Shown: positions 11,006-64,000, counted from the first letter of the stretch. The stretch: DNA of 64,000 bases from Candidatus Poribacteria bacterium (GCA_022394755.1 JAGFCA010000024.1:12368-76367); one strand, 5' to 3'. Program-made: numbers and translations. Notes: generated from the letters alone by a model not told the origin.

Positions 11006-11147
11006 TTAATATTGCGGTTATTGAATATTTCATAATTTCTTTTCTTTTTTACATATATCCGAATATGTAAAAACCTCATTGAAAATCCAATTAATCCTAT
11101 TATGAATTGTATTTCCTGCGTAATAAAACTGATGTATAGAGGTAACC

Positions 11148-12374: not shown

Positions 12375-12491
12375 ATTCATTCCATTTTATATAAACTATC
12401 ACTATTGTATTTTGTCTAATTATACACATGTTTACAGTTATAGAAATAAATCAAACTATTCAGATCCATATATTATAAGGAGTTAAACATA

Positions 12492-12947: not shown

Positions 12948-12972
12948 TTCCAGTGATATCATAGGATACCAG

Positions 12973-14023: not shown

Positions 14024-14129
14024 CCCTATGAAGAATTGATTTCTTATTACAAATCCTTAGATATAATTGTCTTAGTTCTTTTTCTAAATTTATGATTTTA
14101 GCTTAGATTACTTAAGGATAGTTATTATA

Positions 14130-15035: not shown

Positions 15036-15155
15036 ATTGCCAAATATCAGACAGACATCTAATTCTCTAACCACATCTTCAAATAAATTGAAAGAGAATA
15101 TTGCAAGATTGGATAGATAATCTGAGTATGTTAACAAGTAAGCAAAAAAGAAAAT

Positions 15156-16652: not shown

Positions 16653-16705
16653 TTTGAAATTATACAAAACTATAATAGAAAAATAAGCAATAGAGGCTTA
16701 ATTTT

Positions 16706-18616: not shown

Positions 18617-19942
18617 GTGAATTTAGATCTGCAACTTACAACACAGACCAAATTACTTATTGGAATTCTCGGGTTAGTACTAATCATAGCATTGGTAACA
18701 CAATGGGGTCCAGGTTTATATAAGATGTTCTCAGACGAGGAAATGGCTGTAAAAAAACAAACTCTTCAAACATCTAAAGATTTAGTAGCTGCTTCAAGAA
18801 TGTTGATACCCATTGAAGTAGGACTATTTGAGAAAACTGGACTTGCCGAAGAAGGTCAGGATGCTTCGATTTTTAATGATAATTTCCCTGAGACTGTCAT
18901 TCGTTCAAAGATTACATCAATTGTTAAAGAAGCAGGAATACCAAGAAATTACCAATGGAACATGGAACCTATCCCAGGCAAGAAGACAGAAAAAATCTCA
19001 CCGCATGCTCGACGTAACTTAATCAACTTTCTATATCTGGAAAAACTAAAAACAGAAAGAGATATCTTACAGTTTGAAATTGAGGATGAACAACAAACAC
19101 AAGAAGATGCTGAAGTACAAGCAGAAGAAGAGATGATGGATCTGTTGATGAATGCATGGTTAGATGAAACTGAAGATATCCCAGAGAAGGAGGAACATGA
19201 ATCCAACAATATGGATATAGAAGAGAATGAGGACGAAGCCTCTGAAGATATCAAGGAAGATGATTCCAACAATAGGGATATAGAAGAGAATGAGGACGAA
19301 GACAAAATCGAAAATGGTATAGAGAAACAACAAGATGGTGATGTCTATACGGACAAAGCTGATTCAGATATGAACCAAAATCAATCGAATGAAGAAGATT
19401 TTGTATCATTGCCAGAGGATATACCAATAACAATTCGAGTGGAACTGATTGATGTACTTCTTTCAATGATTGAACAACAACTTGTTGGAGCTGAAACGAC
19501 ACTATTTGAAAAGGAATTCTATAAATTACAAAAAGAATCGAAAGCAGGATTCTTTGGATTTGGTTCGAAAAAGCCTTCAACGGAAATTAGTTTTAACCCA
19601 AATAGTCAGATATTGAGTACTTTTCTTATTCTTATAAAAGACTATGAATCAGAATTAGATAAGAAGCATCTTTCTTCACTTCTTCTACAATATCTTGAAA
19701 ACATACAGACACAAATCGAAGAACTTACAAAAGGATTGAGATTAGCTCCTTCAACCTACACTCCAGAGAGTTATTCCATAAAAATAAAGTTTAAGGCTGA
19801 ATTGGATAAGCTTGTTAATCTCAATAGGATAATTGAAACTTCATCAAAATGGTTGATGGTAAGAGATCTTAAAATCTCTACTGACAATAAACAAGACAAA
19901 ATAACTGTTGAGTTGTTCTTGATTGCGAGGATTTATCAATGA
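18617..19942 (+). CDS. T2SS-associated bitopic membrane protein with acidic tandem repeats (GspM/GspC position), hypothetical
   Basis: GTG start with AAGGA SD. N-terminal TM (LLIGILGLVLIIALV). In-frame 63-nt-period repeats encoding SNNMDIEENEDEA / SNNRDIEENEDED. No match I can assert to a named Gsp family. Confidence 0.4.
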   Translation: MNLDLQLTTQTKLLIGILGLVLIIALVTQWGPGLYKMFSDEEMAVKKQTLQTSKDLVAASRMLIPIEVGLFEKTGLAEEGQDASIFNDNFPETVIRSKITSIVKEAGIPRNYQWNMEPIPGKKTEKISPHARRNLINFLYLEKLKTERDILQFEIEDEQQTQEDAEVQAEEEMMDLLMNAWLDETEDIPEKEEHESNNMDIEENEDEASEDIKEDDSNNRDIEENEDEDKIENGIEKQQDGDVYTDKADSDMNQNQSNEEDFVSLPEDIPITIRVELIDVLLSMIEQQLVGAETTLFEKEFYKLQKESKAGFFGFGSKKPSTEISFNPNSQILSTFLILIKDYESELDKKHLSSLLLQYLENIQTQIEELTKGLRLAPSTYTPESYSIKIKFKAELDKLVNLNRIIETSSKWLMVRDLKISTDNKQDKITVELFLIARIYQ

Positions 19943-39217: not shown

Positions 39218-40411
39218 TCACTGTAACTCTTCAACATTTGACCGAATCTTTTGGAATGCATCTAAGATAAGCTGCATGTCATCGGTATCACCCAAAAACA
39301 TTGCATGTCCAAAACTACATACCTCATTATGATATACATATTCTGCTTGAGGACAATGTACAGTACTATAATCAATTGCACGATCACCAAGAAATTCACG
39401 TGGTAATCCTAATTGGTCAAACCAGTCAGCATTTCCAAATGGACCCTCATTATATATCGGCTGTCCATGTGCCCCAACACCACACGGGACACCTTCTGCA
39501 CCAAGTGCTTCCATAAATTTCCCGCGGGAGATTCCTGCAAACTCTTCAGGTATGAAACGAAAATCCCAATAATAGAAACACCAACGTGTAACTCGTTCAT
39601 CTCGTGGGATTGGATCAATTCCTTCAATATCAGCCATTCCTTTAACGAGGTATGCGACATTCTTCTCTCTTGTTTCAACTTGTTCAGGAAATCTTTCAAA
39701 TTGTGCTAATAACAGTGCAGCTTGTAGATTAGTCATTCGCATATTCAGATTTGCTATTTCCCGTGATTTAATAGCGAGTTCTTCATCGTTCGTGATGACC
39801 ATTCCACCCTCACCACAAGTGAGTGTCTTACCAATTTGAAAACTAAATGTTCCGAGATCACCAATTGAACCCGTTCCTTTTCCACGCCATTGTGAACCGT
39901 GTGAATGTGCACAATCCTCAATCACCTTTAAATTATGTTTATCTGCGATATCCATAATAGCATCCATATCCGCAGGATAACCGCCGTTATGTACTGGTAT
40001 GATAGCCCGTGTTCTTGGAGTGATAGCTGCTTCAATTGCATCTGGGGCAATGTTATAGGTCAACGGGTCTACATCAACGATGACTGGTACAGCATTTACA
40101 CATACTGCTGATGTACCAGTTGCAACAAAAGTGAGGGCAGGGGCAATTACTTCATCCCCCGCCGTGACGCCTGCAGCCTTCAGTGCACATTGTAATGCTA
40201 CAGTTCCATTTGCCAAAGGTATACCATATTCAGCATCATGGTAGGCAGCAAATTTTTCAGCAATTTCGTCAACCTTCTCACGCCTATTCCAAGCACCACT
40301 TTGTATAACTTCTAATAATGCCTTTTCTTCCTTTTCATCATGAATTGGCCAACTCTTTCCTAATCCTTTTTTCACTACTGGATCGCCACCATTTATAGCC
40401 AATTTAGCCAT
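39218..40411 (-). CDS. DegT/DnrJ/EryC1/StrS-family PLP-dependent sugar aminotransferase
   Basis: Start chosen at ATG 40411 (MAKLAINGG), preceded by AAGGAGG with 8-nt spacing; ORF track from 40444. Family motifs ANGTVALQCALKA, DEVIAPALTFVATG, FSFQIGKTLTCGEGGMV (PLP-lysine region). Confidence 0.85.
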   Translation of the reverse strand: MAKLAINGGDPVVKKGLGKSWPIHDEKEEKALLEVIQSGAWNRREKVDEIAEKFAAYHDAEYGIPLANGTVALQCALKAAGVTAGDEVIAPALTFVATGTSAVCVNAVPVIVDVDPLTYNIAPDAIEAAITPRTRAIIPVHNGGYPADMDAIMDIADKHNLKVIEDCAHSHGSQWRGKGTGSIGDLGTFSFQIGKTLTCGEGGMVITNDEELAIKSREIANLNMRMTNLQAALLLAQFERFPEQVETREKNVAYLVKGMADIEGIDPIPRDERVTRWCFYYWDFRFIPEEFAGISRGKFMEALGAEGVPCGVGAHGQPIYNEGPFGNADWFDQLGLPREFLGDRAIDYSTVHCPQAEYVYHNEVCSFGHAMFLGDTDDMQLILDAFQKIRSNVEELQ

Positions 40412-40440: not shown

Positions 40441-41871
40441 TCAAAGATCTAAGGTTGTCTTCAATTGTAAAAATGGGTTCTGTTTTCTTAGGGTGTCTAT
40501 AGATTTCAAGTCCTCAATTGGATTATCTAAAACCATTAAATGTGTGAGATTCTTAAGATTCCCTATAATTCTAATATCGGTAATTTGATTACCAGATAGG
40601 TTTACCATAATTAGGTCCTGCAATTTTACTATCGGTTCAATGTCCTTGATATGATTGTTCATAAGAGATATTGCATTTAGTTTGTTCATATCTGCAAGTG
40701 GAGAAATATCTATAATCTGATTATTTTCCAATATTAGCATTTCCAGTTTTGTTAATTCATTAAGCGGAGAAATATCATTGATTTCGTTTCCAGAAAGGTC
40801 GAGAAAATTTAATTTCTTCAGTTTACTAAGAGGTTGTATTCGGGTAAGTCCACAGTGAATAAGTGAAAGAAATTCCAACTGATGTAATTCTGAGATAGGG
40901 TTTAGGTCATTAATTTGATTATAAGCGAGTGTAAGAATATTTATCTGTGTCATGACTTTAATAGGTGTTAAGTCTGTTATCTGACACTTAATTAATGATA
41001 AGCTTGTAAGATCTGTGATTTCGGTAACTGGTGTTAAATCCTTAATGTCAATGTTTGTTAGTGATAGATCCGTGAGTTGTGTAAGGTTTGAAAGTATGTC
41101 AAAATCAATGTTTTCTAATTCTCCTCCGTTAATAGATAAATTCGTAAGTTGTATCATTCCACCAATAGGTGTGACATCTGCGATTTTACAATTATGTAGA
41201 TGTAACTGTTTCAACTGTGCCATACCAGAGAGCGGAGTGATATCTACAACTTGATTGCTATCAAGAGATAAGTTCGTAAGATTAGTTAATTCTGTCATCT
41301 GATTAATGTCACTTATATCATTTAAGGTAAGTCCTAATTGGTTAAGTTGAGACAATTCAGATAGGACATCAAACAATTCATTAGAATTTTTGATAGTATT
41401 GTTTTTCAGTTCTAAGTGATTGAGATTTTTTAATCCAGCAATCGGATTTATACTTCTTATATTGTTATTAGTTAGGTTTAATGTTTTCAGTTCGATTAAA
41501 TTGGCAAGTGGTTTGATATTAGATATTTTATTATCATTTAGTGTTAATGATCTAAGCTTTGTAAGCTTATTTAGCGGTTTGATGTTTTGAATGTCGTTAT
41601 GATTAAGGAATAAATTGTTTAGATTTACAGCTTTCTCCAAACCGTTTAACCTTGTAATTTCAGCATGGATCGCACCTAAGACTGTTAATTTACTTAGATC
41701 TTCTTCCAATATAGGAGCATCTGGGTCTAATGCAAGTTCTTTTCGTATTGCATTTGCAAGGTTATCATCAGGAATTAAATTCCGTTCAAAAACAGAACAA
41801 CTCAGAAGAACGGTCAGAATCAAGAAAAATACACAGATATGTTTCATTATTTCATCCTTTATAATTTCCAA
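40441..41871 (-). CDS. Exported leucine-rich repeat protein (internalin-like 22-aa LRRs)
   Basis: Signal peptide (MKHICVFFLILTVLLSCSVFE). About 17 consecutive 22-residue repeats LxxLxxLxLxxNxIxDIxPLxx. Confidence 0.8.
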   Translation of the reverse strand: MEIIKDEIMKHICVFFLILTVLLSCSVFERNLIPDDNLANAIRKELALDPDAPILEEDLSKLTVLGAIHAEITRLNGLEKAVNLNNLFLNHNDIQNIKPLNKLTKLRSLTLNDNKISNIKPLANLIELKTLNLTNNNIRSINPIAGLKNLNHLELKNNTIKNSNELFDVLSELSQLNQLGLTLNDISDINQMTELTNLTNLSLDSNQVVDITPLSGMAQLKQLHLHNCKIADVTPIGGMIQLTNLSINGGELENIDFDILSNLTQLTDLSLTNIDIKDLTPVTEITDLTSLSLIKCQITDLTPIKVMTQINILTLAYNQINDLNPISELHQLEFLSLIHCGLTRIQPLSKLKKLNFLDLSGNEINDISPLNELTKLEMLILENNQIIDISPLADMNKLNAISLMNNHIKDIEPIVKLQDLIMVNLSGNQITDIRIIGNLKNLTHLMVLDNPIEDLKSIDTLRKQNPFLQLKTTLDL

Positions 41872-41872
41872 T

Positions 41873-44455
41873 CTATTGATCTAAATATAAATTGGGTTGT
41901 TCTTTTTTTAGATTTTGGATAGGTGACATGTCCACGATTGGGTTATTCTTAATATGTAGGGTCTGCAGCTGATTTAGATTTTCAAAAACACTCACATCCT
42001 TAATTTGGTTATCAGATAAGGATAACCATTTCAGTTTCTTGAATTTGACTATAGGAGATATATCTTCAATTTTATTCTTATTAAGTACTAAACGACTCAA
42101 ATGGTCTAATTTTGAGAGTGGACTAATATCTTCTACTTGATTATTGTATATAGATAAGGAGGTTAACCGTTTCATATTAGATAAAACAGTCACTAATTGT
42201 GTAATATCAGAAATTTGATTTCCCTCTAATGTTAATGATGAGAGACGGGACAAACTTTCAAGAGCCGAAAAATCCCTAATTTGACAATCAATAAGAACTA
42301 AATTATTCAGTTGACTTAATTTACTGATAGAACTAATATCTAAAATCTTAACCGTACTGAGATAAAACGTATGAAGATGTTTCAAATGAGTCAATGGAGT
42401 GAGATCATTAATCTGGATATTGTGCAAGAATAAGGAATTAAGGTGGAATAAATCTGATAGTGGTGATAAATCACTAATCGGATTGTCTTTAATCGTCAAA
42501 TAGGTAAGATTCTGCAATTCTACAAGTGGTGATATATCACGTATCTGATTCTCATCAATTGATAAAGTAGTCAATTTTGACATCTTTATTAGTGGTGTGA
42601 GGTCTTTGATATTATTTCCATCAATTCTTAATGACTCTAAATCTGTCAAGTCAGATAATGGGGTGAGATCCATGATTTCACCACTACAAATATACAGATC
42701 TTGTAAGTTTTCTAAATCTTTCAGCGGAGATATATCTGTAACTTTATTTTCTTTATTATCTTCTGTTCTATAGAATCTACGGAGACGTAAAGTCCATAGA
42801 GAGTTCAATCCAGCAAGAGGGGTAATATCACGGATCTTATTTCCACCCAATCCTAAACTTAGGATGTTTGGTAGTTTTGAAAGTGGTTCAAGGTTAATTA
42901 TTCGATTATCATCTAAAGATAAATGCCGTAACTTTGTCAAATTCTTTAATGGTCTGAGGTCCTCAATATCATTAAACATCAACATAATGCTCGTTAGTTC
43001 TGATAGTCCTTCAAGTGGAGAAATATCTTGAATTTCATTCAATGCAAGATCTAATTCTTCTAATGCAGTAGCAAACTCTAAACCCGTCAAGTCAACTATT
43101 TTGGTGCTATTTGAAGATAAAGTTGTTAGTTCTTTTAGTTTTTCTATTGTAATTAGATCAACTGAACTTAGACCGAGTTGACGTGCAATTGCTGCTTCTA
43201 AGTTTGGATCAGGAATGATCTCAGATTCTGAGGTTACTACATCCTCCATATTCTCTGTTAAGTTAACATCTGTTTGCTGGGTATTGAAAGGAAGCGTCCT
43301 CTTCTGCCTCAGCTCATCAAGCAGACCTGTATCACTTAGTAGCTCTTTATCTACATTTAAAATATCTAATTCCTTTAAACCCTTGAGTACCTGTATATCA
43401 CGGATTTCGTTGTTTTCTAAATGTAAATAAGTTAATTTTTCCAAGTTTGCAAGGGGTGAAACATCTATAATGTCATTGTGTTGAAGGTACAGAGTCTTTA
43501 ATTGCTTCAAACCATTCAAAGATGGCAAGACTTTAATTGAATTATGATTCAGATATAGTGTTCTTAATTTAGATAAATTGTCAATGGATGGGACATCAGT
43601 AATTCTATTGCTGCTAAGGTTTAGAGTGCTTAGATTGGTCAAACTCACTATAGGATTAATATCATTGATTTCATTTCGAGCAAGTTCTAATTCTCTTAAA
43701 TTTACCAACCCCGATATAGGAGTAATATCTTGAATTTTATTGTTCGACAATATCAAAGTCTGAAGATTTAGCAAATTTTCAAGAGAGGATATAGAGGTTA
43801 TACGATTTAAATCCAATGTGAGACTATTTAGTTGTTTGAGTTTTTGAAGTGATGGTATTTCTCTTATTCGATTGTCACGAAGGCTAAGTATTATCAATTT
43901 ATGTAGATTTATAATCGGTGTAAAATCTTGTATCTCATTATATTCAAGGAAAATTGTTCTTAATTGTTTTAGATTTCTTAATGCTTCTATACCTTGGATA
44001 TAATTCCTGGACAGAGATAATGAACGTAGGTGATTTAATTTTGAAATAGGCGTCAAATCTGAAATATGGTTATTATCAAGATTCAAAGACCGAAGTCTTT
44101 TCATTTTCTTTAATGTTGATATATCGGTAATATTATTTCTATAAAGTGATAATTGGGTAAGTTTTGTTAATCCCTGAATTGGTGTTATATCTGAAATCTC
44201 ATTCTGATTAAGTGTTAAGACTTTTAATTCTGTAGCATATTCTAAACCAGATAAATCGTTTATCCCTTTATCAGATGCATCAAGTTCTGTCAATTCCTTC
44301 ATATTTTTATTTAAAATTGGTGTATCTGAATCTATTTTGAGAGCATCTCTAATTGCAGTCTCTAAATTCTTATCTGGTATATCTATTTCTATTGGTTCTT
44401 GTGAAACACAACCAATAAATGCCACAAAGAAAATTAGAAAAATTGCATATCTCAT
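41873..44455 (-). CDS. Large leucine-rich repeat lipoprotein (internalin-like LRRs), 860 aa
   Basis: Lipobox FIGC. More than 30 22-aa LRRs in two blocks separated by a linker. 1-nt gap to the downstream LRR gene. Confidence 0.8.
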   Translation of the reverse strand: MRYAIFLIFFVAFIGCVSQEPIEIDIPDKNLETAIRDALKIDSDTPILNKNMKELTELDASDKGINDLSGLEYATELKVLTLNQNEISDITPIQGLTKLTQLSLYRNNITDISTLKKMKRLRSLNLDNNHISDLTPISKLNHLRSLSLSRNYIQGIEALRNLKQLRTIFLEYNEIQDFTPIINLHKLIILSLRDNRIREIPSLQKLKQLNSLTLDLNRITSISSLENLLNLQTLILSNNKIQDITPISGLVNLRELELARNEINDINPIVSLTNLSTLNLSSNRITDVPSIDNLSKLRTLYLNHNSIKVLPSLNGLKQLKTLYLQHNDIIDVSPLANLEKLTYLHLENNEIRDIQVLKGLKELDILNVDKELLSDTGLLDELRQKRTLPFNTQQTDVNLTENMEDVVTSESEIIPDPNLEAAIARQLGLSSVDLITIEKLKELTTLSSNSTKIVDLTGLEFATALEELDLALNEIQDISPLEGLSELTSIMLMFNDIEDLRPLKNLTKLRHLSLDDNRIINLEPLSKLPNILSLGLGGNKIRDITPLAGLNSLWTLRLRRFYRTEDNKENKVTDISPLKDLENLQDLYICSGEIMDLTPLSDLTDLESLRIDGNNIKDLTPLIKMSKLTTLSIDENQIRDISPLVELQNLTYLTIKDNPISDLSPLSDLFHLNSLFLHNIQINDLTPLTHLKHLHTFYLSTVKILDISSISKLSQLNNLVLIDCQIRDFSALESLSRLSSLTLEGNQISDITQLVTVLSNMKRLTSLSIYNNQVEDISPLSKLDHLSRLVLNKNKIEDISPIVKFKKLKWLSLSDNQIKDVSVFENLNQLQTLHIKNNPIVDMSPIQNLKKEQPNLYLDQ

Positions 44456-44631
44456 GATACATTATCCTTACTAACATCATCTATATTAGGACTATATAAA
44501 ATCTTACTGTATAATAACACATAAGAGTAATGTTTACTATATATTCTCTATTATATATTGAGGCAATCATATTCTAATCTTAACACGACTTATGTCATAC
44601 TCTATAATTTGACTACAATTTTCTAATATCT

Positions 44632-45558
44632 ATGAAGGTATCAACAAATTATACAATAACTGCTATAGATGGTATACAAGTAGGTCATGCGACTAATATA
44701 TCTGCAAAAACGGGTTGTACTGTGATACTTTGTCCTGAAGGTACTACTGCAGGGGTGGATGTCCGTGGGGCTGCACCCGGCACACGTGAGACTGATGCCA
44801 TACGTCCTGGACGATTAATTCAGGAAGTACACGGAATCCTGTTGACAGGAGGAAGTGCGTTTGGTTTGGATGCTACAAGTGGTGTTGTTCAATATCTTGA
44901 ACAGAGAGAAATTGGTTTTAAAGCAGGAGACGTACGTGTTCCAATAGTTCCGACAGCAGTTATCTTTGATTTACATGTTGGAGATGGAAAGATCCGTCCA
45001 AATAAAGACATGGGATATGAAGCATGTATTAATGCAGATAATACTCAAGTCTTGATGGGGAGTATTGGTGCAGGAACTGGTGCAACTGTTGGAAAAGCAC
45101 CAGGGATAGAACCATCACCAGGAGGAATTGGTTCTGGATGTATTCGTCTTGAAAATGGATTAATTGTTGCTGCTCTTACTGTAGTAAATTCTCTTGGAAA
45201 TGTGGTAGATCCTAAGTCGGGTGAGATTATCTCAGGCGGAAAAGATAAAGGGGTGTATGTGGATATAACCGAACGACTATTAGATGCAGATATTGTTCCA
45301 GGGACAAATACGACCATCGGTGTCGTTGCTACTAATGCTAAACTGACAGTAGCTGAAGCAACACGTGTCGCAGAGATGGCACACGATGGAATGGCACGTG
45401 CAATCTATCCATCACATACCATGTTTGATGGGGATACACTGTTTACCCTTGCTACAGGTAAACATGAACAAAGTAGTGTGAATACGATTGGAATACTCGG
45501 AGCAGAGGCTGTTGCAAAATCAATTGTAAACGCTGTAATGGCTTCAACACCGAGCTAA
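44632..45558 (+). CDS. Peptidase family S58 (DmpA/P1 aminopeptidase-like) protein
   Basis: GIQVGHATN...GCTVIL...LTGGSAFGLDATSGVVQYLEQREIGF...TIGVVATNAKL. Ntn-hydrolase DmpA/ArgJ-like pattern. Confidence 0.65.
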   Translation: MKVSTNYTITAIDGIQVGHATNISAKTGCTVILCPEGTTAGVDVRGAAPGTRETDAIRPGRLIQEVHGILLTGGSAFGLDATSGVVQYLEQREIGFKAGDVRVPIVPTAVIFDLHVGDGKIRPNKDMGYEACINADNTQVLMGSIGAGTGATVGKAPGIEPSPGGIGSGCIRLENGLIVAALTVVNSLGNVVDPKSGEIISGGKDKGVYVDITERLLDADIVPGTNTTIGVVATNAKLTVAEATRVAEMAHDGMARAIYPSHTMFDGDTLFTLATGKHEQSSVNTIGILGAEAVAKSIVNAVMASTPS

Positions 45559-49364: not shown

Positions 49365-50008
49365 ATTGTAGTTGAAATAAGACTTTTTATCAAGATTACA
49401 TTTTTTTGGAATGTAAAGTTTTTGGCATTAATATCGTATTTTCCATGTGTATATTTATAGATTACAGTTATTGAGTGTCAGTAAACAGTTTACATTAGTA
49501 TTAAATCTAAACTATTACATTTATTAAGATGATTTTATCGTTTTTCCCACTTAGTAGATTTTATTATATGTGTGAGAAAATGTTACACTTTTCCTACAAA
49601 GTGTAGGATTATCTCCTGTTGCTACACTGCCTTTCCTGTTAGTCCCTGTCAGGGTTTGTAACGAATTAAACCTCTAATTCTAAAATTTGAAAAAAGTTAC
49701 AAATTTTGTAGTTTTCCTTGATTAGCGATTATTCTGTTTTTACTATTAATATTCTCATAACATACTATTTATCGGCAGATTCACTCCTGAAAAATCAGAT
49801 TATTGGATTAGATTGTAAAACACTTTGTTTTACTACTATGTAGTATAATAATTCTCTATATGTTATTGTATCATTTATTTTATTATGTCAATGTATATTT
49901 ATCTATATGATATTAGTTTCTTTATCATATATTTTCTTCATTTTATTTTTATGAATTATGCAGGTTGTTATCTGAAACGCTGTTAGTCGACTGCTATTGC
50001 TCCTCATG

Positions 50009-50046
50009 TCAGAATCGTGGATTACATTGTTTGATCCCGATTCTGA
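50009..50046. repeat. Inverted repeat TCAGAATCG-(20 nt)-CGATTCTGA in non-coding gap
   Basis: Perfect 9-bp arms. The same GAATCAGAATC core recurs as a tandem GAATCA array at 50072-50098. Confidence 0.45.
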
Positions 50047-50362
50047 ATAGGATTTTACAGATTTCGCCCCTCGAATCAGAATCAGGAATCAAGAATCAAC
50101 GTTATGAATGCCGTAGGTCATTACCCGTGGCTATCCTTTATATTATCCAAAATCTTTTTTGGAATTAGATTCTCGGTAGTAAAATGTCGAAAATGTCCTA
50201 ACACTTTAAAATTTGGTTGAATCCTCTCTGAAATTTCCCAAACTATAGTAGCTACAAAAAATATTGTTGTATAGTGACAAAAAGTTTACACATCCGATCT
50301 TGAGTTATATAGTGTTATTTCCTATAAATATATGCTATAATCAACAGTAAAGTATAGGAAAT

Positions 50363-55192: not shown

Positions 55193-55419
55193 AATACACT
55201 CCTAATAATTATATGGTTATTCTCCCATAGAATATAACGTATAGATAATATAGAAAGTTTCACATCGACCATACGTTGGCACTACATAATATATAACAAT
55301 GTCAATAGGTGGATGCTACTTATTCGCTTACATCATCAGTTCTTGTTTTCTCGCTACTTGATATTTTTGACTTTATTTCATTTTGAAAGTATAATATATT
55401 TTTTATGTAGGAGGTGTGT

Positions 55420-57156
55420 ATGAAGCAGTCGAATTCTAATCCTAAGAGATCGAATAACCAAGATACAAACGAAGAAAATACCAATAATTCTCACCAAACA
55501 AATTTTATCCGACAAGCCATAGATAGTGATTTAGAAAATAATAGATTTGATGGTAGGGTTCATACACGATTCCCTCCTGAACCCAGTGGATACCTTCATA
55601 TTGGACATGCAAAGGCAATCTGTATAAGTTTCGGAATTGCCGAAGACTATAAAGGACTTTATAATTTAAGATTTGATGATAGTAATCCTATTACTGAAGA
55701 AAGTGAATACGTAGAAGCAATTAAAAGAGATGTCCATTGGCTGGGATTCGATTGGGAAGAACGGGAGTTTTACGCCTCTGATTATTTTGAGACGCTGTAT
55801 GAATATGCCATTAAACTGATAGAAAATGGGAAGGCATTTGTTTGTGATCTTACTCCTGATGAGATGCGTACCTATCGTGGTACTCTTGTGACTACGGGGA
55901 AGGATAGTCCGTATCGCAACCGTTCAATTGAGGAGAATATTACCCTTTTTCAAGGTATGCGAAATGGTGAATTCCCGGATGGTTCTCGGACACTTCGTGC
56001 CAAAATAGATATGTCAAGCCCCAATTTAAATATGCGTGATCCGGTCATGTATCGTGTTCTTAGATCCCACCATTACCGGCATGGTGATAATTGGTGTATA
56101 TATCCTACCTATGACTTCACACACGGACAATCTGATTCAATAGAGGGTGTAACCCATTCTCTATGTGATGTTCAATTTGAAGACCATCGTCCATTATATG
56201 ATTGGTTCTTAGAAGCCTTAGAGATTTACCGACCCAGACAAATTGAATTCGCTCGATTAAACCTTACCTATACAGTGCTTGGAAAACGCAAACTCAAAAT
56301 CCTTGTCGAAGAAGGTCATGTTGACGGTTGGGACGATCCCAGACTACCTACACTTGCAGGTATGCGTCGAAGGGGATATACACCAGATGCAATAAGAGAC
56401 TTTTGTACCCGTATTGGTGTCTCTAAAGCAGATAATCTTATTGAGTTAAGTCAACTTGAATATTCAATACGAAATGATTTGAACTTACGTGCTCCACGTG
56501 TTATGGCAGTTCTAAATCCGATTAAGGTTATTATTGATAACTATCCAGAAGATCAAGTGGAAATGCTTGAAGCAGAGAATAACCCTGAAGACGAAAGTGC
56601 AGGTTCAAGAGAAATTCCATTCTCAAAAGAAATATATATTGAAAGAGATGATTTCATGGAAGATCCACCACGGAAGTTCTACAGGTTAGCTCCAGGCAAA
56701 GAAGTCCGTCTAAAACACGCATACTACATAACATGTGAGAATGTGGTAAAAGATGAAGACACGGGAGAAATTTTAGAAATACATTGTACTTATGATCCTG
56801 ATACAAGGGGTGGATGGTCTGATGATGGCCGTCGTGTACAAGGAACTTTACACTGGGTTTCAGTGGAACATGCAGCCAATGCCGAAGTACGTCTGTATGA
56901 AACTCTCTTCACCGAACGTGAACCTGAAAATGCTGCTGATGGGTCTGATTGGATACAATTTCTTAATCCAGATTCTTTAGAAATCTTGGAAAATTGCAAG
57001 GTTGAACCAAGCTTGTTAGATGCAGAATCAGAAAGTCGCTATCAGTTTTTACGTACTGGATATTTCTGTGTAGATTCAGACTCAACTGCAGAAAAACTGG
57101 TCTTCAATCGTACAGTTCCTCTACGTGATAGTTGGGCAAAAATGCAAAAGAAATAG
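55420..57156 (+). CDS. glnS: Glutaminyl-tRNA synthetase
   Basis: AGGAGG SD, ATG 55420. HIGH motif [16 protein letters not shown]. GlnRS-specific [11 protein letters not shown]...[20 protein letters not shown]-terminal anticodon-binding barrels. Confidence 0.9.
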
Positions 57157-57157
57157 A

Positions 57158-58663
57158 ATGGACATTAATACTATGAATAGTCACACAACTGTAAATGGTG
57201 AAGTAAGAGTTCGAATGGCACCCTCCCCTACAGGATTTTTACATATTGGTGGTGCCAGGACAGCCTTATTCAATTGGTTGTTTGCCAAACATCATCATGG
57301 AAAGTTCATATTACGAATTGATGATACAGATATCGAACGTTCTACCGATGAATCTATGCACGAGATTTATGAGGCTATGCAATGGTTGGGTTTGGATTGG
57401 GATGAAGGTGGAGAAAAAGGAGGACCTTATGGCCCCTACCTGCAATCTGAACGAAAAGAGGTATACGATAGGTATGTAGGAGAACTTCTCGCCTCTAATC
57501 ACGCATATCATTGTTATTGCACATCTGAAGAATTAGAAGAGATACGTACAGAAGCACGTGAAGCAAAATCAACCCGTTCTTATGATGGTCGTTGTAAAGA
57601 ACTTTCCTCAGAAGTAATTGAGAAATATATAGCTGATGGTAGAAAACCAACAGTACGGATAAAAATGCCAGAAACTTCTATCCTTGTTGATGATCTGATA
57701 CTTGGTTCACGTAATATAGATCCCGCAACACTTGAAGATGAAGTGATTGTTCGTTCAAATGGTATGCCGAACTATAATTTAACATCAATTATTGACGATG
57801 TGGAAATGAATATAACCCATGTCATTAGAGGAACAGAACATCTCAACAATACTCCAAAACAGATTGCAATTGCGAATGCTCTCGGTCTCTCACTACCTCA
57901 ATTTGCTCATATTCCTTTAGTTCTTGATGATTCTGGTAGAAAACTGAGTAAACGCCATCATGGTGATTTGGTTGCGGTTAACCGTTATCGAGAACAAGGA
58001 TATCTTCCTGAGGCAATGTTAAATTTTGTAGCAAGGCTTGGTTGGTCTTATGACGATAAACAGGAGATTTTTTCTCTTGAGGATCTTATTGATAAGTTCG
58101 ATCTTGCACGTGTGGGGAAAAGTGGCAGCGTGTTTGATATTAAAAAATTAGAATGGTTGAACTCACACTATATCAACCAACTTGATGTATCAAGACGTAC
58201 AGATGCAGTAATACCATATTGGCAAGCAGAAGGATTAATTGATTCAATAGAAGATAGAGAAAAACTTGAGAAGATTGTAGAAGCAGTGGGTGAACGTCTT
58301 AACACACTAAAAGACATTGTGCCCCAAACAAGCTATTTCTTTTCTGATGATTTTGAATTTGATCCGAAGGCTACAAAGAAATGGTGGGGTAGCTCAGATG
58401 AAAAGAAACAGAAGACATACGAGATTCTAACTAATCTATCACAGATCTTAGAAGATACTCCAGACTTTGGTTTGGATACAATTGAATCTTTAGTTTGGAA
58501 ATATACAGATGAAAACGATATTAAACGTGTTGCAGCCATGCAATCAATGCGAATTGCATTGACTGGACTGTCCTTTGGTCCAAGTTTGTTTGATATTGTT
58601 GTGTTGCTTGGAAAAGATGAAGTTTTGAAAAGACTTCAAAAGGCAATAGTAAGTCTATCATAA
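57158..58663 (+). CDS. gltX: Glutamyl-tRNA synthetase
   Basis: VRVRMAPSPTGFLHIGGARTALFNW (HIGH region) and KLSKRHG (KMSKS). ATG 57158 is 2 nt after the glnS stop; ATG 57173 is an alternative start. ORF track from 57125. Confidence 0.9.
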   Translation: MDINTMNSHTTVNGEVRVRMAPSPTGFLHIGGARTALFNWLFAKHHHGKFILRIDDTDIERSTDESMHEIYEAMQWLGLDWDEGGEKGGPYGPYLQSERKEVYDRYVGELLASNHAYHCYCTSEELEEIRTEAREAKSTRSYDGRCKELSSEVIEKYIADGRKPTVRIKMPETSILVDDLILGSRNIDPATLEDEVIVRSNGMPNYNLTSIIDDVEMNITHVIRGTEHLNNTPKQIAIANALGLSLPQFAHIPLVLDDSGRKLSKRHHGDLVAVNRYREQGYLPEAMLNFVARLGWSYDDKQEIFSLEDLIDKFDLARVGKSGSVFDIKKLEWLNSHYINQLDVSRRTDAVIPYWQAEGLIDSIEDREKLEKIVEAVGERLNTLKDIVPQTSYFFSDDFEFDPKATKKWWGSSDEKKQKTYEILTNLSQILEDTPDFGLDTIESLVWKYTDENDIKRVAAMQSMRIALTGLSFGPSLFDIVVLLGKDEVLKRLQKAIVSLS

Positions 58664-60669: not shown

Positions 60670-61812
60670 TTAGAAATTAAGTCCTAAACTAATTCTATGT
60701 GCTTGTCGTAAATATCCAAAGTCAGCGAAAGAATAATCAAGTGATAACCTTGTCTCAGAAAATTTGTGGTGTATACCCAAACCGATTGTAGGACCTTCTT
60801 CATCATCACGACTATCCGGACCCAGACGAAGTTTATAACCAGCACGAATGGCAGCTGTCCGTTTATACCAATATTCAATCCCAAAGTTAATCCGTTCACT
60901 ATTATCATTTGGGTGGTTACCATCAAGTGCGATAGTTAGAAGATTAGTATCAGAATCGATTAGGTCATAAGCAATACCAAGTCTAAAATTAGATGGCAAG
61001 GGATATTCAATAGTCTTTAATTCTGCTTTACGTGCAGGGTTTGTAGTATCTGGAAAAGGGTGATATTCAGCATTTCGTTCATCTCCTGCTTCTTCTACAC
61101 CGGTTTCAAGATCAGGACCACTGAAACTCATTTCAGGACCGAAGTTTGAAAATGACATGCCAATCCTTAGACTACGCCATCCTGTGTGATACAATGTACC
61201 AACATCTAATGCGACACCAGTAGCTTTCTCTCTGTGAATTTGCTGGTGGATATATTTTGTATTAACACCAAAAGAAAGTTTAGCTCCAGAGTCCTTTTCA
61301 TAGAGTTGTCTGGAATATGCCAATGAAACAGCAGAATCCCAAGCAGAATACATGAGTCCTGTACCATCTGGTTTTGCCAGAGTCGTAATTTCTATGTCTG
61401 GTACATTCAGAAATGTCACACTTCCTCCAAGTGTCCCCACATTCTCAATAGAGGTTGCAAAAGCGAGATAGTTATACTGAATGTCTGCGATCCATAGTGT
61501 ATGTGTATCAGAAAAATTGGTTTTCTTTAATTGACTTAATCCTGCCGGATTCCAATAGATTGTAGTAACGTCATTCGCAATTGCGCTAAACGTACCTCCA
61601 AGACTTTCAACCCGTGCCCCAGGACCAATCTTTAAAAACTGTGCCCCTGCAGTACCTACGTTTGTGGTTGCTTGACTTGGAACATTGTAAAACATCAACA
61701 TTGAAAAGATCATTAAAATTATGAATGTAATATTACATCTTTTCATAGTAGTGCCCTTTTTTTCATTGGTCTTACTATCATCATTATATTTACTGAAAAT
61801 AGAATTATTCAT
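60670..61812 (-). CDS. Outer-membrane beta-barrel protein, PorV (LptO)-like type IX secretion component
   Basis: AGGAG SD before ATG 61812; alternative ATG 61746 (MKRCNITFIILMIF..). After the signal peptide, GTAGAQFLKIGPGARVESLGGTFSAIANDVTTIYWNPAGL matches the conserved PorV N-terminal signature as I recall it. C-terminal Phe (..SLGLNF) is typical of OMPs. Confidence 0.55.
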   Translation of the reverse strand: MNNSIFSKYNDDSKTNEKKGTTMKRCNITFIILMIFSMLMFYNVPSQATTNVGTAGAQFLKIGPGARVESLGGTFSAIANDVTTIYWNPAGLSQLKKTNFSDTHTLWIADIQYNYLAFATSIENVGTLGGSVTFLNVPDIEITTLAKPDGTGLMYSAWDSAVSLAYSRQLYEKDSGAKLSFGVNTKYIHQQIHREKATGVALDVGTLYHTGWRSLRIGMSFSNFGPEMSFSGPDLETGVEEAGDERNAEYHPFPDTTNPARKAELKTIEYPLPSNFRLGIAYDLIDSDTNLLTIALDGNHPNDNSERINFGIEYWYKRTAAIRAGYKLRLGPDSRDDEEGPTIGLGIHHKFSETRLSLDYSFADFGYLRQAHRISLGLNF

Positions 61813-61849
61813 GTATTTCTCCTATAAGGCGTTTGCTTTCAACAAAAGA

Positions 61850-64000
61850 CTATCGTATAATAGCAAAACGACCTATCTTATTTCCAATAACTGCATTTCT
61901 TTCATCTTTCGCTTCAACATGGAATATATATACACCACTTGCGAGTGCTTGATTGTAGCGATTAAGCAGATCGAATTCTGCAGTACCACCCTTATCCCCT
62001 TGTGCTAACCGTTCATCTGGGTTAAAGAGTGTTGTACTTTCATGTTTGATTTCTCTGACTAATTCGCCAGCTAATGTATAAATCCGGATTGTACAGCGTG
62101 GTGGTAGATGAGTGAAGAAAACTTGATCCGTACCTTCTGCTGTAACGGTTTTGTTAGTAACAAAATAGGGATTGGGTACAACGCGAATATTATCAAGATC
62201 ATCCTTTATATTCTCAGAATCAAGTGATTCACCTTCGGTAGAGATAAGCAGTTCGTCGCCATCCTGTGGAGCACTTATACCTCCCATATCTACCGTGAAA
62301 ACGTCTCCAGAGGATATTTCTCCATTAGGATCAAAGATATAGACATACGCACCACGTATGAATATCCTAAAGTATCCGGGAGTGTCTGCGGGTACATATT
62401 CATTACTCCACCCAGAAGCCGTTAGAATAGCATATCCATCTGCTCGTTTGTCATTAAATTCAATTTCTTCATCCAAGTCTTCATCTACAACCTTAACATG
62501 TGTATCGTCAGTAAATGTAATAGTATAAATATGTGGACGGTAGTATGTTGCCCAGAAAATGTTTGGCCATGTATTTTCACCAGCACCCGGAGATTCAATG
62601 ATAACAGACCAATCCGTCACTGAACCAGCAGTTAGTTTGACATCATTAATCGGATTTTCATCAGGAGTGTCGTAGGTTATATCAACACCTTTCATTTTTA
62701 GTATGATTCCATCAAACATCGGTGATAAGGTTTCATATGCAGTATAATTGTTTGCATCATACCAATCGAAGATTTGTTTCTCAACGACAGTTTGATTTGT
62801 GACTGTATCAATTATCTCATAAGAAGGTGGTTGATATCCTGGACCGGTAATATATGCTCCCGGACCAGTCTGTTTAGCTCCATACCATACAATTTTATAT
62901 TGATGTCCTGTTACCTCTTTAGGAGCTAATACCATTGGCTCAATCGTTACTGTTACAGCATCAGGCATCTCGATGTTTACCGACGGTTCTCTATATCCCG
63001 CTGGTTGTGAACGTGGCACGACATGAACCATCGTTTCAATCTGGCTACTTTCCATTGATGGTAAGCCTTTTTTAGGGTTACCTGTATCATAAGATGTGAC
63101 AGCATAAGTATATTGAATACCGTTGATTAACCCTTCATCAGTATAGAAGTTCTTGATACCTGCGTCTTCTCCTAACGCAATTGATGGAGTAGATACAACA
63201 CGGAAAATATCTCCTGCGACTGGCGGACCTGAGGGACCATCGGTAATCTTTACATAAAGTCCACCGAAATAGATTAGTTCACCTGAACGATATGTACCAT
63301 CAGGGAACGGTTCACCAGTGGCTGGATCTTTTACAACAACATAACCACCACCATCACCTGGAAAGGATTCATTATATGCCAAGACTTCCCATAAAGTAGT
63401 GTTGATGATTTCGAAACTTGTACTGGAATTCAATTTGATAGCGTATGCAGCATTCTTAAAGAAATCAGCGAAATGGGGTTCATCCCCCATACTTTCAATG
63501 GTAGAATCGGATAGTTTCCCTACGTGAGATACTGTGAAGAAATTACCAGTTGCACTTGGTTTGTCGAATTCGATCAACATTTCCCAATCTTCAACTGGTT
63601 TTCCTGTATTCTCATCGTAGGCTGTATCACGTCGATAAACTCTATAACCTTCAAAAATCTTTTCAGAATCTGTGGGATCAATATATTCTTCAATCTTCTT
63701 ACTAACTCCTTCTGTCACCCACCGATCAGCACTATCCCAAATCAATGAAACTTGACCATCGGCTGGATAGGCAGTCACAAGTGGGGATGGAGGAGGTGCA
63801 GGAGCAATATAGTCATCATCATAAAGTTTCTGTGCCCAATCAGATGAAGCCTGCAGTCCTGCTAATCCTTCACCGATTGCAACTGCAATGATGACGTTAA
63901 ATGTATCACCTGGTGCGAAAGATTCGACTGGACCGTATGATTGAATAAAACGTTGATCATCATAATTAGCAGGAAGTGGTTCCACACCTGGTGTACTGAT
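61850..64000 (-). CDS. Large secreted protein with type IX secretion C-terminal sorting domain (CTD), 5'-truncated by window end; PorU-like by synteny
   Basis: Frame stays open to nt 64000. Last ~90 aa (VVPNPYFV...TIRIYTLAGELVREI...GVYIFHVEAKDERNAVIGNKIGRFAIIR) have the alternating-hydrophobic beta-sandwich pattern of Por_Secre_tail CTDs. Immediately upstream of the PorV-like gene. Confidence 0.55.
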   Translation of the reverse strand: MSTPGVEPLPANYDDQRFIQSYGPVESFAPGDTFNVIIAVAIGEGLAGLQASSDWAQKLYDDDYIAPAPPPSPLVTAYPADGQVSLIWDSADRWVTEGVSKKIEEYIDPTDSEKIFEGYRVYRRDTAYDENTGKPVEDWEMLIEFDKPSATGNFFTVSHVGKLSDSTIESMGDEPHFADFFKNAAYAIKLNSSTSFEIINTTLWEVLAYNESFPGDGGGYVVVKDPATGEPFPDGTYRSGELIYFGGLYVKITDGPSGPPVAGDIFRVVSTPSIALGEDAGIKNFYTDEGLINGIQYTYAVTSYDTGNPKKGLPSMESSQIETMVHVVPRSQPAGYREPSVNIEMPDAVTVTIEPMVLAPKEVTGHQYKIVWYGAKQTGPGAYITGPGYQPPSYEIIDTVTNQTVVEKQIFDWYDANNYTAYETLSPMFDGIILKMKGVDITYDTPDENPINDVKLTAGSVTDWSVIIESPGAGENTWPNIFWATYYRPHIYTITFTDDTHVKVVDEDLDEEIEFNDKRADGYAILTASGWSNEYVPADTPGYFRIFIRGAYVYIFDPNGEISSGDVFTVDMGGISAPQDGDELLISTEGESLDSENIKDDLDNIRVVPNPYFVTNKTVTAEGTDQVFFTHLPPRCTIRIYTLAGELVREIKHESTTLFNPDERLAQGDKGGTAEFDLLNRYNQALASGVYIFHVEAKDERNAVIGNKIGRFAIIR

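What the first reader, a model, noticed from the sequence alone, without database searches (positions are those of the whole stretch)
40441..44455. Two adjacent exported internalin-like leucine-rich-repeat proteins (476 and 860 aa)
Both genes are made almost entirely of 22-residue LRRs (LxxLxxLxLxxNxIxDIxPL), the internalin/LRR_4 type. One has a signal peptide and the other a lipobox. They are 1 nt apart and sit just downstream of a DegT sugar aminotransferase. Such proteins mediate protein-protein adhesion, often host or partner cell binding, and are uncommon in free-living bacteria. Near a T2SS and sulfatases, they may be surface adhesins for attaching to a eukaryotic or particulate substrate. 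The internally repetitive DNA is also a substrate for recombinational length variation.
Basis: seen in the sequence. Interest (0 to 1): 0.55.

Follow-up and report, generated by a model that had tools for sequence, protein, structure and literature searches.

The report
Poribacterial internalin-like LRR lipoprotein gene pair
Two neighbouring genes in a Candidatus Poribacteria genome encode membrane-anchored leucine-rich-repeat proteins, a protein-binding type already known to be common in this phylum, at a genomic spot where relatives carry different versions or none.

Summary
Two minus-strand genes, A (41873-44455, 860 aa) and B (40441-41847, 468 aa), consist about 80% of 22-residue LRRs with consensus LxxLxxLxLxxNxIxDIxPLxx (Pfam LRR_4 E=1e-106 and 1e-47). 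AlphaFold2 predicts LRR solenoids closest to the Chlorobium Roco LRR and Listeria InlA.

Corrections:
- Both proteins, not one, carry a lipobox.
- B most likely starts at the ATG at 41847, so the gap to A is 25 nt, not 1.
- The genes lie upstream of DegT and look like an A-B-DegT operon.
- A is two complete cap-LRR-cap modules joined by a linker.

The host is a Candidatus Poribacteria MAG, a phylum where LRR_4 proteins are already reported as abundant. Four related genomes share the S58-peptidase/DegT locus. Three carry LRR lipoprotein genes of different lengths (one IS-disrupted) and one carries none. Orthologues are 46% identical against 75-85% for the flanking genes and differ by whole 22-residue units.

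The window's own DNA repeats are too diverged (47-50% identity, longest exact repeat 17 nt) to drive slippage now. The module type is widespread (about 68,000 representative clusters). There is no internalin Ig-like domain or LPXTG motif.

Verdict: a new member of a known kind, probably envelope-anchored protein-binding proteins. The ligand and which membrane face they occupy are unknown.

The parts
41873..44455 (-). Gene A: 860-aa LRR lipoprotein made of two modules (NCBI neighbour numbering suggests MCG9127216)
   Evidence: ORF. Pfam LRR_4 E=1.2e-106. AF2 single-sequence model has pLDDT 70.7 and shows two solenoids. AAGGA lies 9 nt upstream of the ATG.
44408..44455 (-). A signal peptide and lipobox (MRYAIFLIFFVAFIG-C16)
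   Evidence: Matches the PROSITE-type lipobox rule: R in the first 7 residues, an uncharged h-region, and G-C.
43337..44380 (-). A module 1: N-cap (IPDKNLETAIRDAL...), 14 LRRs, and a C-cap-like end (LLDELRQKR)
   Evidence: 22-residue spacing of the units. Beta-strands every 22 residues from 79 to 368 in the model.
43217..43336 (-). A inter-module linker (residues 374-413), predicted disordered
   Evidence: pLDDT below 50 across 384-469. The linker differs in length and sequence in orthologues X1 and Y2.
41876..43216 (-). A module 2: second N-cap (IPDPNLEAAIARQL...), 17 LRRs, and C-cap (NNPIVDMSPIQNLKKEQPNLYLDQ)
   Evidence: Pfam LRR_EndoS matches residues 414-481. This module is 36% identical to the whole of B.
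40441..41847 (-). Gene B: 468-aa single-module LRR lipoprotein with 17 LRRs (the alternative TTG start at 41871 would give 476 aa)
   Evidence: ORF. Pfam LRR_4 E=1.3e-47. AF2 pLDDT 72.4 and pTM 0.72. Foldseek top hits are 5il7 and 1o6v. The Logan gene call is also 468 aa.
41797..41847 (-). B signal peptide and lipobox (MKHICVFFLILTVLLS-C17)
   Evidence: The same N-terminal signal, MKHIC or MKHIY, occurs in X1, X2, Y1 and Y2 and, as MKH[IF][CY] variants, in further clusters.
39218..40411 (-). DegT/DnrJ/EryC1-family sugar aminotransferase (397 aa), 29 nt downstream of B and probably co-transcribed
   Evidence: Pfam PF01041 E=1e-90. AAGGAGG lies 8 nt upstream of the ATG. No terminator-like site was found on the minus strand between A and DegT.
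44456..44631 (.). AT-rich divergent intergenic region between A (minus strand) and the S58 peptidase (plus strand), with promoter-like sites on both strands
   Evidence: Minus-strand ATGACA-16-TAGAAT at 44598-44571 (10 of 12 matches). Plus-strand TTAACA-17-TATAAT at 44580-44608 (11 of 12). These are consensus matches only.
44632..45558 (+). S58/P1-family peptidase, the conserved flank that marks the locus in relatives
   Evidence: Pfam PF03576. It is 72-75% identical to the copies in L082, L083, L084 and L164.

Best explanation
A and B are two paralogous members of a Poribacteria-wide family of LRR lipoproteins.

How they are built. After Sec export, signal peptidase II would cleave before Cys16 (A) or Cys17 (B), and the acylated Cys would tether the protein to a membrane. 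The tether is only about 8-10 residues long. It leads into an internalin-type helical N-cap (IPDxNLxxAIRxxL...), then a right-handed 22-residue LRR solenoid (17 repeats in B; 14 plus 17 in two beads-on-a-string solenoids in A), then a short C-cap (NPIxDxSPIxxLRKxxPxL).

What they probably do. By analogy with every characterised protein of this LRR class, the solenoid is a protein-binding surface. The most likely role is an envelope-anchored binder or adhesin for an external protein partner, such as a host, a particle or another cell.

How they evolve. The family changes by tandem gene duplication, gene fusion (A is two complete modules), gain and loss of whole units, IS disruption and gene loss. 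All of this happens at a fixed chromosomal site between the S58 peptidase and DegT. Only the scaffold residues are conserved, and all exposed positions diverge fast.

Shown here: domain composition, lipobox, predicted fold, genome of origin, locus variability, and fast divergence.
Inferred: lipidation, outer-membrane or surface location, binding function, and co-transcription with DegT.
For: Composition and fold:
- LRR content: Pfam LRR_4, E=1e-106 and 1e-47.
- 22-residue consensus with Asn at position 12 in 36 of 45 segments.
- AF2 models show a beta-strand every 22 residues.
- Foldseek finds the Roco LRR at E=3.5e-23, InlA at 4e-22, and Leptospira LRR proteins 4u09, 4u08 and 4u06.
- PDB sequence hits to internalins cover the N-cap (A residues 20-349 against 4fmz residues 10-343).
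- A lipobox rule is met in 5 of 6 locus proteins. No LPXTG motif and no other sorting domain is present.

Host:
- Window proteins are identical to NCBI MCG9127192-MCG9127223, annotated 'Candidatus Poribacteria bacterium'.
- Kamke et al. 2014 report pfam12799 LRRs as highly abundant in Poribacteria, often with a signal peptide or transmembrane helix (PMC3909097).

Family:
- An N-terminal profile search finds many clusters with the same signal, lipobox and cap over their whole length. Every organism named among the listed hits is Poribacteria; one other named hit is an unassigned marine-sediment metagenome protein.

Locus variability:
- L083 has 845-aa and 886-aa LRR genes followed by DegT. L082 has 742-aa and 753-aa LRR genes. 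L164 has a 395-aa gene plus a gene split by two IS3-type elements, then DegT. L084 has none.
- A and Y2 are 46% identical and collinear apart from one 22-residue unit. DegT is 85% identical and S58 75%.
- Scaffold positions are 78% identical, against 24-26% at exposed positions.
- X2 of L082 carries a 66-nt repeat of 2.8 copies at 95% identity, a recent unit duplication.

Native origin:
- GC3 of A and B (0.25-0.27) matches the flanking genes (0.22-0.26), so these are resident genes.
Against: - No ligand, localisation or expression data exist.
- A lipobox does not say which membrane or which leaflet. A periplasm-facing location is equally compatible with the sequence.
- The concave face is no more conserved than the convex face between orthologues (26% against 24%, Fisher p=0.71). 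There is therefore no signature of a conserved binding site.
- The structures were predicted from single sequences (pLDDT about 71-72), and the N-caps are modelled at low confidence.
- It is unknown whether this low-GC (36%) Poribacteria lineage is host-associated or free-living, so 'host binding' is only one option.
- Several fragmentary family members come from low-coverage long-read assemblies and may reflect sequencing frameshifts rather than real decay.
Confidence: 0.6

Rival explanations
1. The proteins are periplasm-facing lipoproteins on the inner leaflet of the outer membrane or on the inner membrane. They would scaffold or chaperone envelope proteins rather than contact anything outside the cell.
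For: The lipobox with Ser or Val at position +2 fits default Lol sorting to the inner leaflet of the outer membrane under the E. coli rule (established knowledge). No surface-export tag such as a T9SS C-terminal domain, PEP-CTERM or dockerin is present. The tether of only 8-10 residues would hold the solenoid close to a membrane.
Against: The genes are lost, disrupted or resized freely between close relatives, which is unusual for core envelope scaffolds. Exposed residues diverge far faster than in the flanking genes, which is typical of externally exposed proteins. Many non-proteobacterial diderms do display lipoproteins on the surface (own knowledge).
Confidence: 0.25
2. The proteins are released eukaryote-like effectors that act on or inside host (sponge) cells, for example to interfere with phagocytosis, as proposed for ankyrin-repeat proteins of sponge symbionts.
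For: Poribacteria are best known as sponge symbionts enriched in eukaryote-like repeat proteins. Kamke et al. draw the parallel to Yersinia and Listeria LRR virulence factors and cite the finding that symbiont ankyrin proteins block phagocytosis (PMC3909097). A T2SS is encoded in the window.
Against: A lipobox, conserved in most sequenced relatives of the family, predicts retention on the bacterial envelope rather than release. There is no translocation signal and no effector domain. The lifestyle of this 36%-GC lineage is unknown. The T2SS is 14-31 kb away and its link to these genes is untested.
Confidence: 0.1
3. A, B and DegT form a functional operon, in which the LRR lipoproteins take part in assembling or displaying an amino-sugar-containing envelope glycan.
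For: The three genes are packed tightly on one strand (gaps of 25 and 29 nt) with no terminator-like site between them. The same LRR-LRR-DegT order occurs in L083 and L164.
Against: In L084 DegT sits directly next to S58 with no LRR genes. In L082 the LRR pair is followed by an unrelated gene instead of DegT. The adjacency therefore looks like insertion into the leader region of a pre-existing DegT transcription unit. No LRR protein of this class is known to act in glycan synthesis (own knowledge).
Confidence: 0.05
4. The genes form a contingency locus whose repeat number changes at high frequency within a population by recombination between repeat units.
For: Orthologues differ by whole units. 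Family lengths range from 137 to 886 aa. X2 in L082 carries a 95%-identical 66-nt repeat of 2.8 copies.
Against: In this window there is no 66-nt tandem array. Unit identity averages 47-50% and reaches 67% at most. The longest exact repeat is 17 nt. That is too short and too diverged for efficient homologous recombination, so variation here happens on an evolutionary timescale, not a population one. Only one contig carrying this exact protein was on record.
Confidence: 0.08

Closest known systems
Listeria internalins (InlA, InlB, InlF, InlH; class 1 internalins)
   Same: Both have the 22-residue SDS22-class LRR with the same consensus. The N-cap is of similar type (IPDxNLxxAIR... here, IF.D..LAE.IK... 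in Listeria). Sequence identity over cap and LRR is 30-36%. Both are exported and cell-anchored. Best PDB and Foldseek hits include 2omt, 1o6v and 4fmz.
   Different: There is no Ig-like inter-repeat domain (Pfam PF08191 not hit, and only about 25 residues follow the last LRR). There is no LPXTG motif or GW anchor. Anchoring is by an N-terminal lipid in a diderm cell instead. NCBIfam internalin models score far below their cut-offs, for example 461 against 1600 bits. A has two tandem solenoids.
LRR domain of the Chlorobium tepidum Roco protein (5il7, 6hlu, 8r4b)
   Same: It is the single best sequence and structure match (E=3e-63 for A, 1e-71 for B, Foldseek 3.5e-23), with the same LRR subtype and a similar repeat number.
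   Different: Roco is a cytoplasmic multidomain GTPase (LRR-Roc-COR). The proteins here have no Roc or COR domains and are exported lipoproteins.
Eukaryote-like LRR proteins of Poribacteria and other sponge symbionts (Kamke et al. 2014, PMC3909097)
   Same: Same phylum and same Pfam family (PF12799), with frequent signal peptides. This is the category the genes belong to.
   Different: Earlier work was a domain census. The lipobox plus cap-LRR-cap architecture, the tandem arrangement, and the variable S58/DegT locus were not mentioned in the passages I read.
LRR proteins of pathogenic spirochaetes (Leptospira LIC10831, LIC11098, LIC12759, LIC11505; Treponema denticola LrrA)
   Same: They are exported LRR-only proteins of diderm bacteria, occur in multiple paralogues, and bind host molecules (glycosaminoglycans and integrins in PMC11629876). 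They are structural neighbours (4u06, 4u08, 4u09).
   Different: They belong to a different LRR subclass with only 20-24% identity in the structural alignments. The 23-residue period of the spirochaete repeats is from my own knowledge. The phylum differs, and no host-binding data exist for the Poribacteria proteins.

Membership tests
SDS22-like/internalin-type LRR domain (Pfam LRR_4 PF12799, LRR_8 PF13855) | Tandem 22-residue units with consensus LxxLxxLxLxxNxIxxIxxLxx and an Asn ladder | tested here: met
   Pfam E=1e-106 and 1e-47, well above the gathering scores. The spacing between units is 22 residues in most intervals. The derived consensus is LxxLxxLxLxxNxIxDIxPLxx, with Asn at position 12 in 36 of 45 segments.
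SDS22-like/internalin-type LRR domain (Pfam LRR_4 PF12799, LRR_8 PF13855) | Curved solenoid with a parallel beta-sheet on the concave face | tested here: met
   AF2 models have one short strand per 22 residues (pLDDT 72 and 71). Foldseek probability is 1.00 to LRR crystal structures. This is a prediction only, made from single sequences.
Listeria internalin family | Helical N-terminal cap directly preceding the LRRs | tested here: inconclusive
   phmmer and NCBIfam alignments to internalins start at the cap (A residues 20-22 against 4fmz residue 10 and InlH profile position 44). Pfam Internalin_N (PF12354) was not hit at E<=0.01, and the cap is modelled at low confidence.
Listeria internalin family | Ig-like inter-repeat (IR) domain fused to the C-terminal end of the LRR region (Pfam LRR_adjacent PF08191) | tested here: not met
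   No PF08191 hit. Only about 25 residues follow the last LRR and they form a short cap.
Listeria internalin family | Cell-wall attachment by an LPXTG sortase motif or GW modules, or secretion, in a monoderm cell | tested here: not met
   No LPXTG motif in any of the six locus proteins. The host is a diderm, with a secretin, an OEP and a PorV-like outer-membrane protein in the window.
Listeria internalin family | Score above the NCBIfam curated cut-off for InlA, InlH, InlJ or InlK | tested here: not met
   The best score is 460.9 bits against a cut-off of 1600 (InlA) for protein A, and 261.5 against 1050 (InlH) for protein B.
Bacterial lipoproteins (signal peptidase II substrates) | N-terminal positive residue, uncharged hydrophobic core, and a lipobox [LIVMF..][..][AGS]-C within the first 15-35 residues | tested here: met
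   A regex of the PROSITE PS51257 type matches A (Cys16), B (Cys17), X1, X2 and Y2. Y1 (YAG-C) narrowly fails it.
Bacterial lipoproteins (signal peptidase II substrates) | Actual diacylglyceryl modification and cleavage, and the final membrane and leaflet | not testable with these tools
   This needs biochemistry: globomycin sensitivity, palmitate labelling and cell fractionation.
Poribacterial eukaryote-like repeat proteins | Encoded in a Poribacteria genome, carries PF12799, and is exported | tested here: met
   Window proteins equal NCBI MCG91271xx entries of 'Candidatus Poribacteria bacterium'. PF12799 is present. The category is described in PMC3909097.
Contingency or repeat-variable surface gene | Near-identical tandem DNA repeats able to recombine or slip | tested here: not met
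   The window has no TRF array of period 66, unit identity of 67% at most, and a longest exact repeat of 17 nt. The feature is met only in the relative X2 of L082.
Proteins with T9SS, PEP-CTERM or dockerin sorting tags (common in the longer LRR homologues) | C-terminal sorting or docking domain (PF18962, PF00404 and similar) | tested here: not met
   Many database homologues carry PF18962, PF00404 or PF13860. A and B have none.

The most novel reading that the evidence does not exclude
The S58-peptidase/DegT site in Poribacteria could be a dedicated, fast-turnover cassette for surface LRR lipoproteins. Gene number, module fusion and repeat number would be reshuffled between lineages to give lineage-specific recognition of host, partner cell or phage. 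That would make it a bacterial counterpart of variable LRR receptor repertoires, rather than a static adhesin pair.
Probability: 0.15. Interest if true: 0.5.

Novelty: new member of a known kind. Interest (0 to 1): 0.3.

Why it matters
Poribacteria are uncultivated, and their eukaryote-like repeat proteins are the main candidates for mediating contact with sponge hosts or particles. This analysis defines a concrete, phylum-typical subfamily: a lipobox, a short tether, an internalin-type N-cap, a variable number of 22-residue LRRs, and a short C-cap. It also identifies a chromosomal site where these genes are gained, fused, resized, IS-disrupted and lost while the neighbouring genes stay conserved. 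That provides defined constructs for heterologous expression and pull-downs, and a marker locus for comparing strains. It does not reveal a new mechanism or a new protein class.

Tried and rejected
1. A genome-contig scan with the neighbouring DUF255 protein returned 80 loci. The nearest was 63% identical and Poribacteria were at 46-50%. None had LRR genes nearby, so it gave no synteny information.
2. Homologue searches with full-length A and B were swamped by thousands of LRR proteins at 30-40% identity from many phyla. True orthologues did not rank at the top. Orthologues were instead reached through flanking genes (sulfatase cluster member P0146; S58 in metagenome contigs) and through an N-terminal profile.
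3. The exact-sequence look-up found A on one Logan contig only, so alleles within a population could not be compared.
4. I tested for a conserved concave binding face between the orthologues A and Y2. It is no different from the convex face.
5. Horizontal transfer is rejected, because GC3 matches the flanking genes.
6. A viral-contig scan with B found no relatives.
7. The window has no Rfam match and no tRNA.
8. Podell et al. 2019 on free-living versus sponge-associated Poribacteria is not in the held library, and SRR12727663 appears in no held paper. The habitat of the source genome therefore stays unknown.
9. The afdb50 fold library was unavailable.
10. A functional link to the T2SS, the sulfatases or DegT is rejected on synteny grounds.

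Full report
**Observation.** The window carries two adjacent minus-strand ORFs exactly where stated: A at 41873-44455 (860 aa) and B at 40441-41871 (476 aa by the longest ORF). Pfam LRR_4 matches A at E=1.2e-106 in 19 stretches and B at E=1.3e-47 in 8 stretches. LRR_8, LRR_9 and LRR_14 also match. Regex anchors fall at 22-residue spacing in nearly all intervals. The consensus of 45 segments is LxxLxxLxLxxNxIxDIxPLxx, with Asn at position 12 in 36 of 45.

**Corrections to the description.**
- Both proteins have a lipobox. A has MRYAIFLIFFVAFIG-C16. B has MKHICVFFLILTVLLS-C17. Both fit the PROSITE-type rule.
- B almost certainly starts at the ATG at 41847. An AAGGA lies 7 nt upstream, inside the codons that the TTG start would add. 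An independent gene caller gives 468 aa. Homologues begin MKHIC.
- The spacing is therefore A stop, 25 nt, B, then B stop, 29 nt, DegT (39218-40411, with an AAGGAGG ribosome-binding site).
- All three genes are on the minus strand, so the LRR genes lie upstream of DegT.
- No terminator-like site lies between them on that strand. A promoter-like site sits in the 176-nt AT-rich divergent region shared with the S58 peptidase gene. An A-B-DegT operon is plausible but inferred.

**Architecture.** Each module has the following parts, in order:
- a lipidated Cys;
- a tether of 8-10 residues;
- an N-cap (IPDxNLxxAIRxxLxL...PI....L..L..L......I.DL.GLE), which internalin alignments also cover;
- the LRRs;
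- a short C-cap (NPIxDxSPIxxLRKxxPxLxxD).

B is one module with 17 LRRs. A is two complete modules of 14 and 17 LRRs. Module 1 ends in a C-cap-like LLDELRQKR, and a linker of about 40 residues leads into a second N-cap at residue 414. This looks like a fusion of two tandem genes. A's second module is 36% identical to all of B.

**Predicted fold.** AF2 single-sequence models give pLDDT 72.4 and pTM 0.72 for B. For A they give pLDDT 70.7 and pTM 0.50, with two solenoids and no fixed mutual orientation. Foldseek against the PDB ranks the C. tepidum Roco LRR (5il7, E=3.5e-23), InlA (1o6v), InlF (4fmz) and the Leptospira LRR proteins (4u09, 4u08, 4u06). Sequence searches of the PDB agree.

**Organism and context.**
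- Six of ten window proteins looked up are exact matches to collection entries named 'Candidatus Poribacteria bacterium' (five among MCG9127192-MCG9127223), on a 174,954-bp contig (locus tag JT359_). A itself is also found on a Logan assembly of SRR12727663.
- The window is ordinary chromosome. It carries a T2SS operon with two 77%-identical giant secretins, a Mn/Zn ABC transporter, GlnRS and GluRS, a sigma factor, two sulfatases and outer-membrane proteins, so the cell is a diderm.
- GC3 of A and B (0.25-0.27) equals that of the flanking genes. The lower overall GC (0.31) reflects the Leu/Asn/Ile/Lys-rich composition. Recent horizontal transfer is therefore not indicated.
- Kamke et al. 2014 already reported PF12799 LRRs as highly abundant in Poribacteria single-cell genomes, often with signal peptides or transmembrane helices, and discussed them as eukaryote-like proteins (PMC3909097).

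**Relatives and the locus.** Full-length searches are saturated by LRR proteins of many phyla at 30-40% identity. The exhaustive search with B finds 67,940 representative clusters at E<=1e-3 and 4,798 at E<=1e-30. Listeria InlA is as similar (35%) as most environmental hits. This module type is therefore very widespread, and 'uncommon in free-living bacteria' is not supported.

True relatives were found through the flanking genes:

| Genome | GC | Content of the locus next to the S58 peptidase |
|---|---|---|
| Window | 36-37% | A (860 aa, two modules), B (468 aa), DegT |
| L083 | 39% | 845-aa single-module LRR lipoprotein, 886-aa two-module one, DegT |
| L082 | 43% | 742-aa two-module and 753-aa single-module LRR lipoproteins, then an unrelated gene |
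| L164 | 48% | 395-aa B-type gene, a second LRR gene split by two IS3-type transposase pairs, DegT |
| L084 | 49% | No LRR genes; DegT abuts S58 directly |

- L084's S58 is the closest relative of L164's (87% identity). The genes were therefore gained or lost recently, and loss in L084 is the more parsimonious reading.
- A's orthologue is Y2 of L083. The two are 46% identical and collinear, share the same irregular units, and differ by exactly one 22-residue unit. DegT is 85% identical and S58 75%.
- Scaffold positions are 78% identical. Exposed positions are about 25% identical on both the concave and the convex face (p=0.71).
- An N-terminal profile search retrieves many clusters with the same signal, lipobox and cap over their whole length. 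Every organism named among the listed hits is Poribacteria; one other named hit is an unassigned marine-sediment metagenome protein.
- Other contigs show three or four such genes in tandem, and a 137-aa mini-version with both caps. Some fragments may be assembly artefacts.

**Repeat instability.**
- In the window, TRF finds no 66-nt array.
- Direct repeats are 62-75% identical over 44 nt.
- The 66-nt units average 47-50% identity with a maximum of 67%. The longest exact repeat is 17 nt, against 12.5 on average and 14 at most in codon shuffles.
- These genes are therefore poor substrates for recombination today.
- Within the family, unit turnover does occur. A and Y2 differ by one unit. X2 in L082 has a 66-nt repeat of 2.8 copies at 95% identity. 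Lengths range widely.

**Mechanism.**
- Most likely (confidence about 0.6): these are SPII-processed, lipid-anchored, protein-binding LRR solenoids on the cell envelope. They would serve as binders or adhesins for an external partner and evolve fast at a fixed hotspot.
- Shown: domains, lipobox, predicted fold, taxon, and locus dynamics.
- Inferred: lipidation, membrane face, binding function, and operon status.
- Rivals: a periplasm-facing scaffold (0.25), released host effectors (0.1), a functional unit with DegT (0.05), and a high-frequency contingency locus (0.08).

**Comparison and membership.**
- The proteins are members of the SDS22/internalin-type LRR superfamily and of the Poribacteria eukaryote-like LRR category.
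- They are not members of the Listeria internalin family. There is no IR domain, no LPXTG or GW anchor, and NCBIfam scores fall far below the cut-offs.
- They resemble the Roco LRR only as a domain.
- Functionally, the nearest analogues are the exported LRR-only proteins of diderms such as Leptospira, which bind host glycosaminoglycans and integrins (PMC11629876).

**Verdict.** The proteins are a new member of a known kind. The modest added value is the definition of a lipoprotein LRR subfamily that so far looks specific to Poribacteria, and of its variable S58/DegT locus. Interest is 0.3.

Noticed in passing
window 19939-22941 and 23056-26061 (+): Two tandem giant secretin genes (1000 and 1001 aa), each with six Secretin_N domains, sit at the end of a T2SS operon (GspE/F/G/K and PilM-like, 9146-18556). 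They are 76.8% identical at protein level and 74% at nucleotide level. A duplicated secretin within one T2SS operon is unusual.
   Followed up: partly
window 26236-29448 (-): A minus-strand trio: a 265-aa Laminin_G_3 protein, a 571-aa protein with squalene-hopene-cyclase/prenyltransferase alpha-alpha-toroid domains (annotated 'hypothetical' in NCBI), and a GT2 glycosyltransferase. Function unclear.
   Followed up: no
L164 10443-12763: Two consecutive IS3-type elements (HTH_Tnp_1 plus rve ORF pairs) are inserted in the second LRR lipoprotein gene of a related Poribacteria genome, at the same S58/DegT locus. They split it into a 127-aa N-terminal fragment and a 336-aa C-terminal fragment.
   Followed up: partly
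L082 18636-18821: A 66-nt tandem repeat of 2.8 copies at 95% identity lies inside LRR gene X2. It encodes three near-identical LRR units (NEISDIAPLGKLTQLKTLDL), which indicates a recent unit duplication.
   Followed up: yes
L165 9250-12221 (also L166): A second, different locus in a 610-kb Poribacteria contig holds three or four LRR lipoprotein genes or fragments of the same family in tandem, next to two DUF1501 genes. The fragmentation may come from low-coverage (7x) long-read frameshifts.
   Followed up: no
L163 38-451: A 137-aa member of the family has a lipobox, an N-cap, only about two or three LRRs, and the C-cap. It is followed 27 nt later by a 312-aa member. The contig is only 1.6 kb, so collapse of repeats during assembly cannot be excluded.
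   Followed up: no
window 55414-58663 (+): GlnRS-type (580 aa) and GluRS-type (512 aa) class I aminoacyl-tRNA synthetase genes are adjacent and overlap by 32 nt.
   Followed up: no
window 49365-50362: A 1-kb stretch at 28.6% GC has no ORF of 70 aa or more, no Rfam match and no tRNA. It lies between the FemAB-like gene and a TPR/HEAT protein gene.
   Followed up: partly
window 60670-63985 (-): A PorV/UPF0164-like outer-membrane protein (380 aa) sits next to a 711-aa protein with no Pfam match, although Kamke et al. [quoted passage not shown]
   Followed up: no
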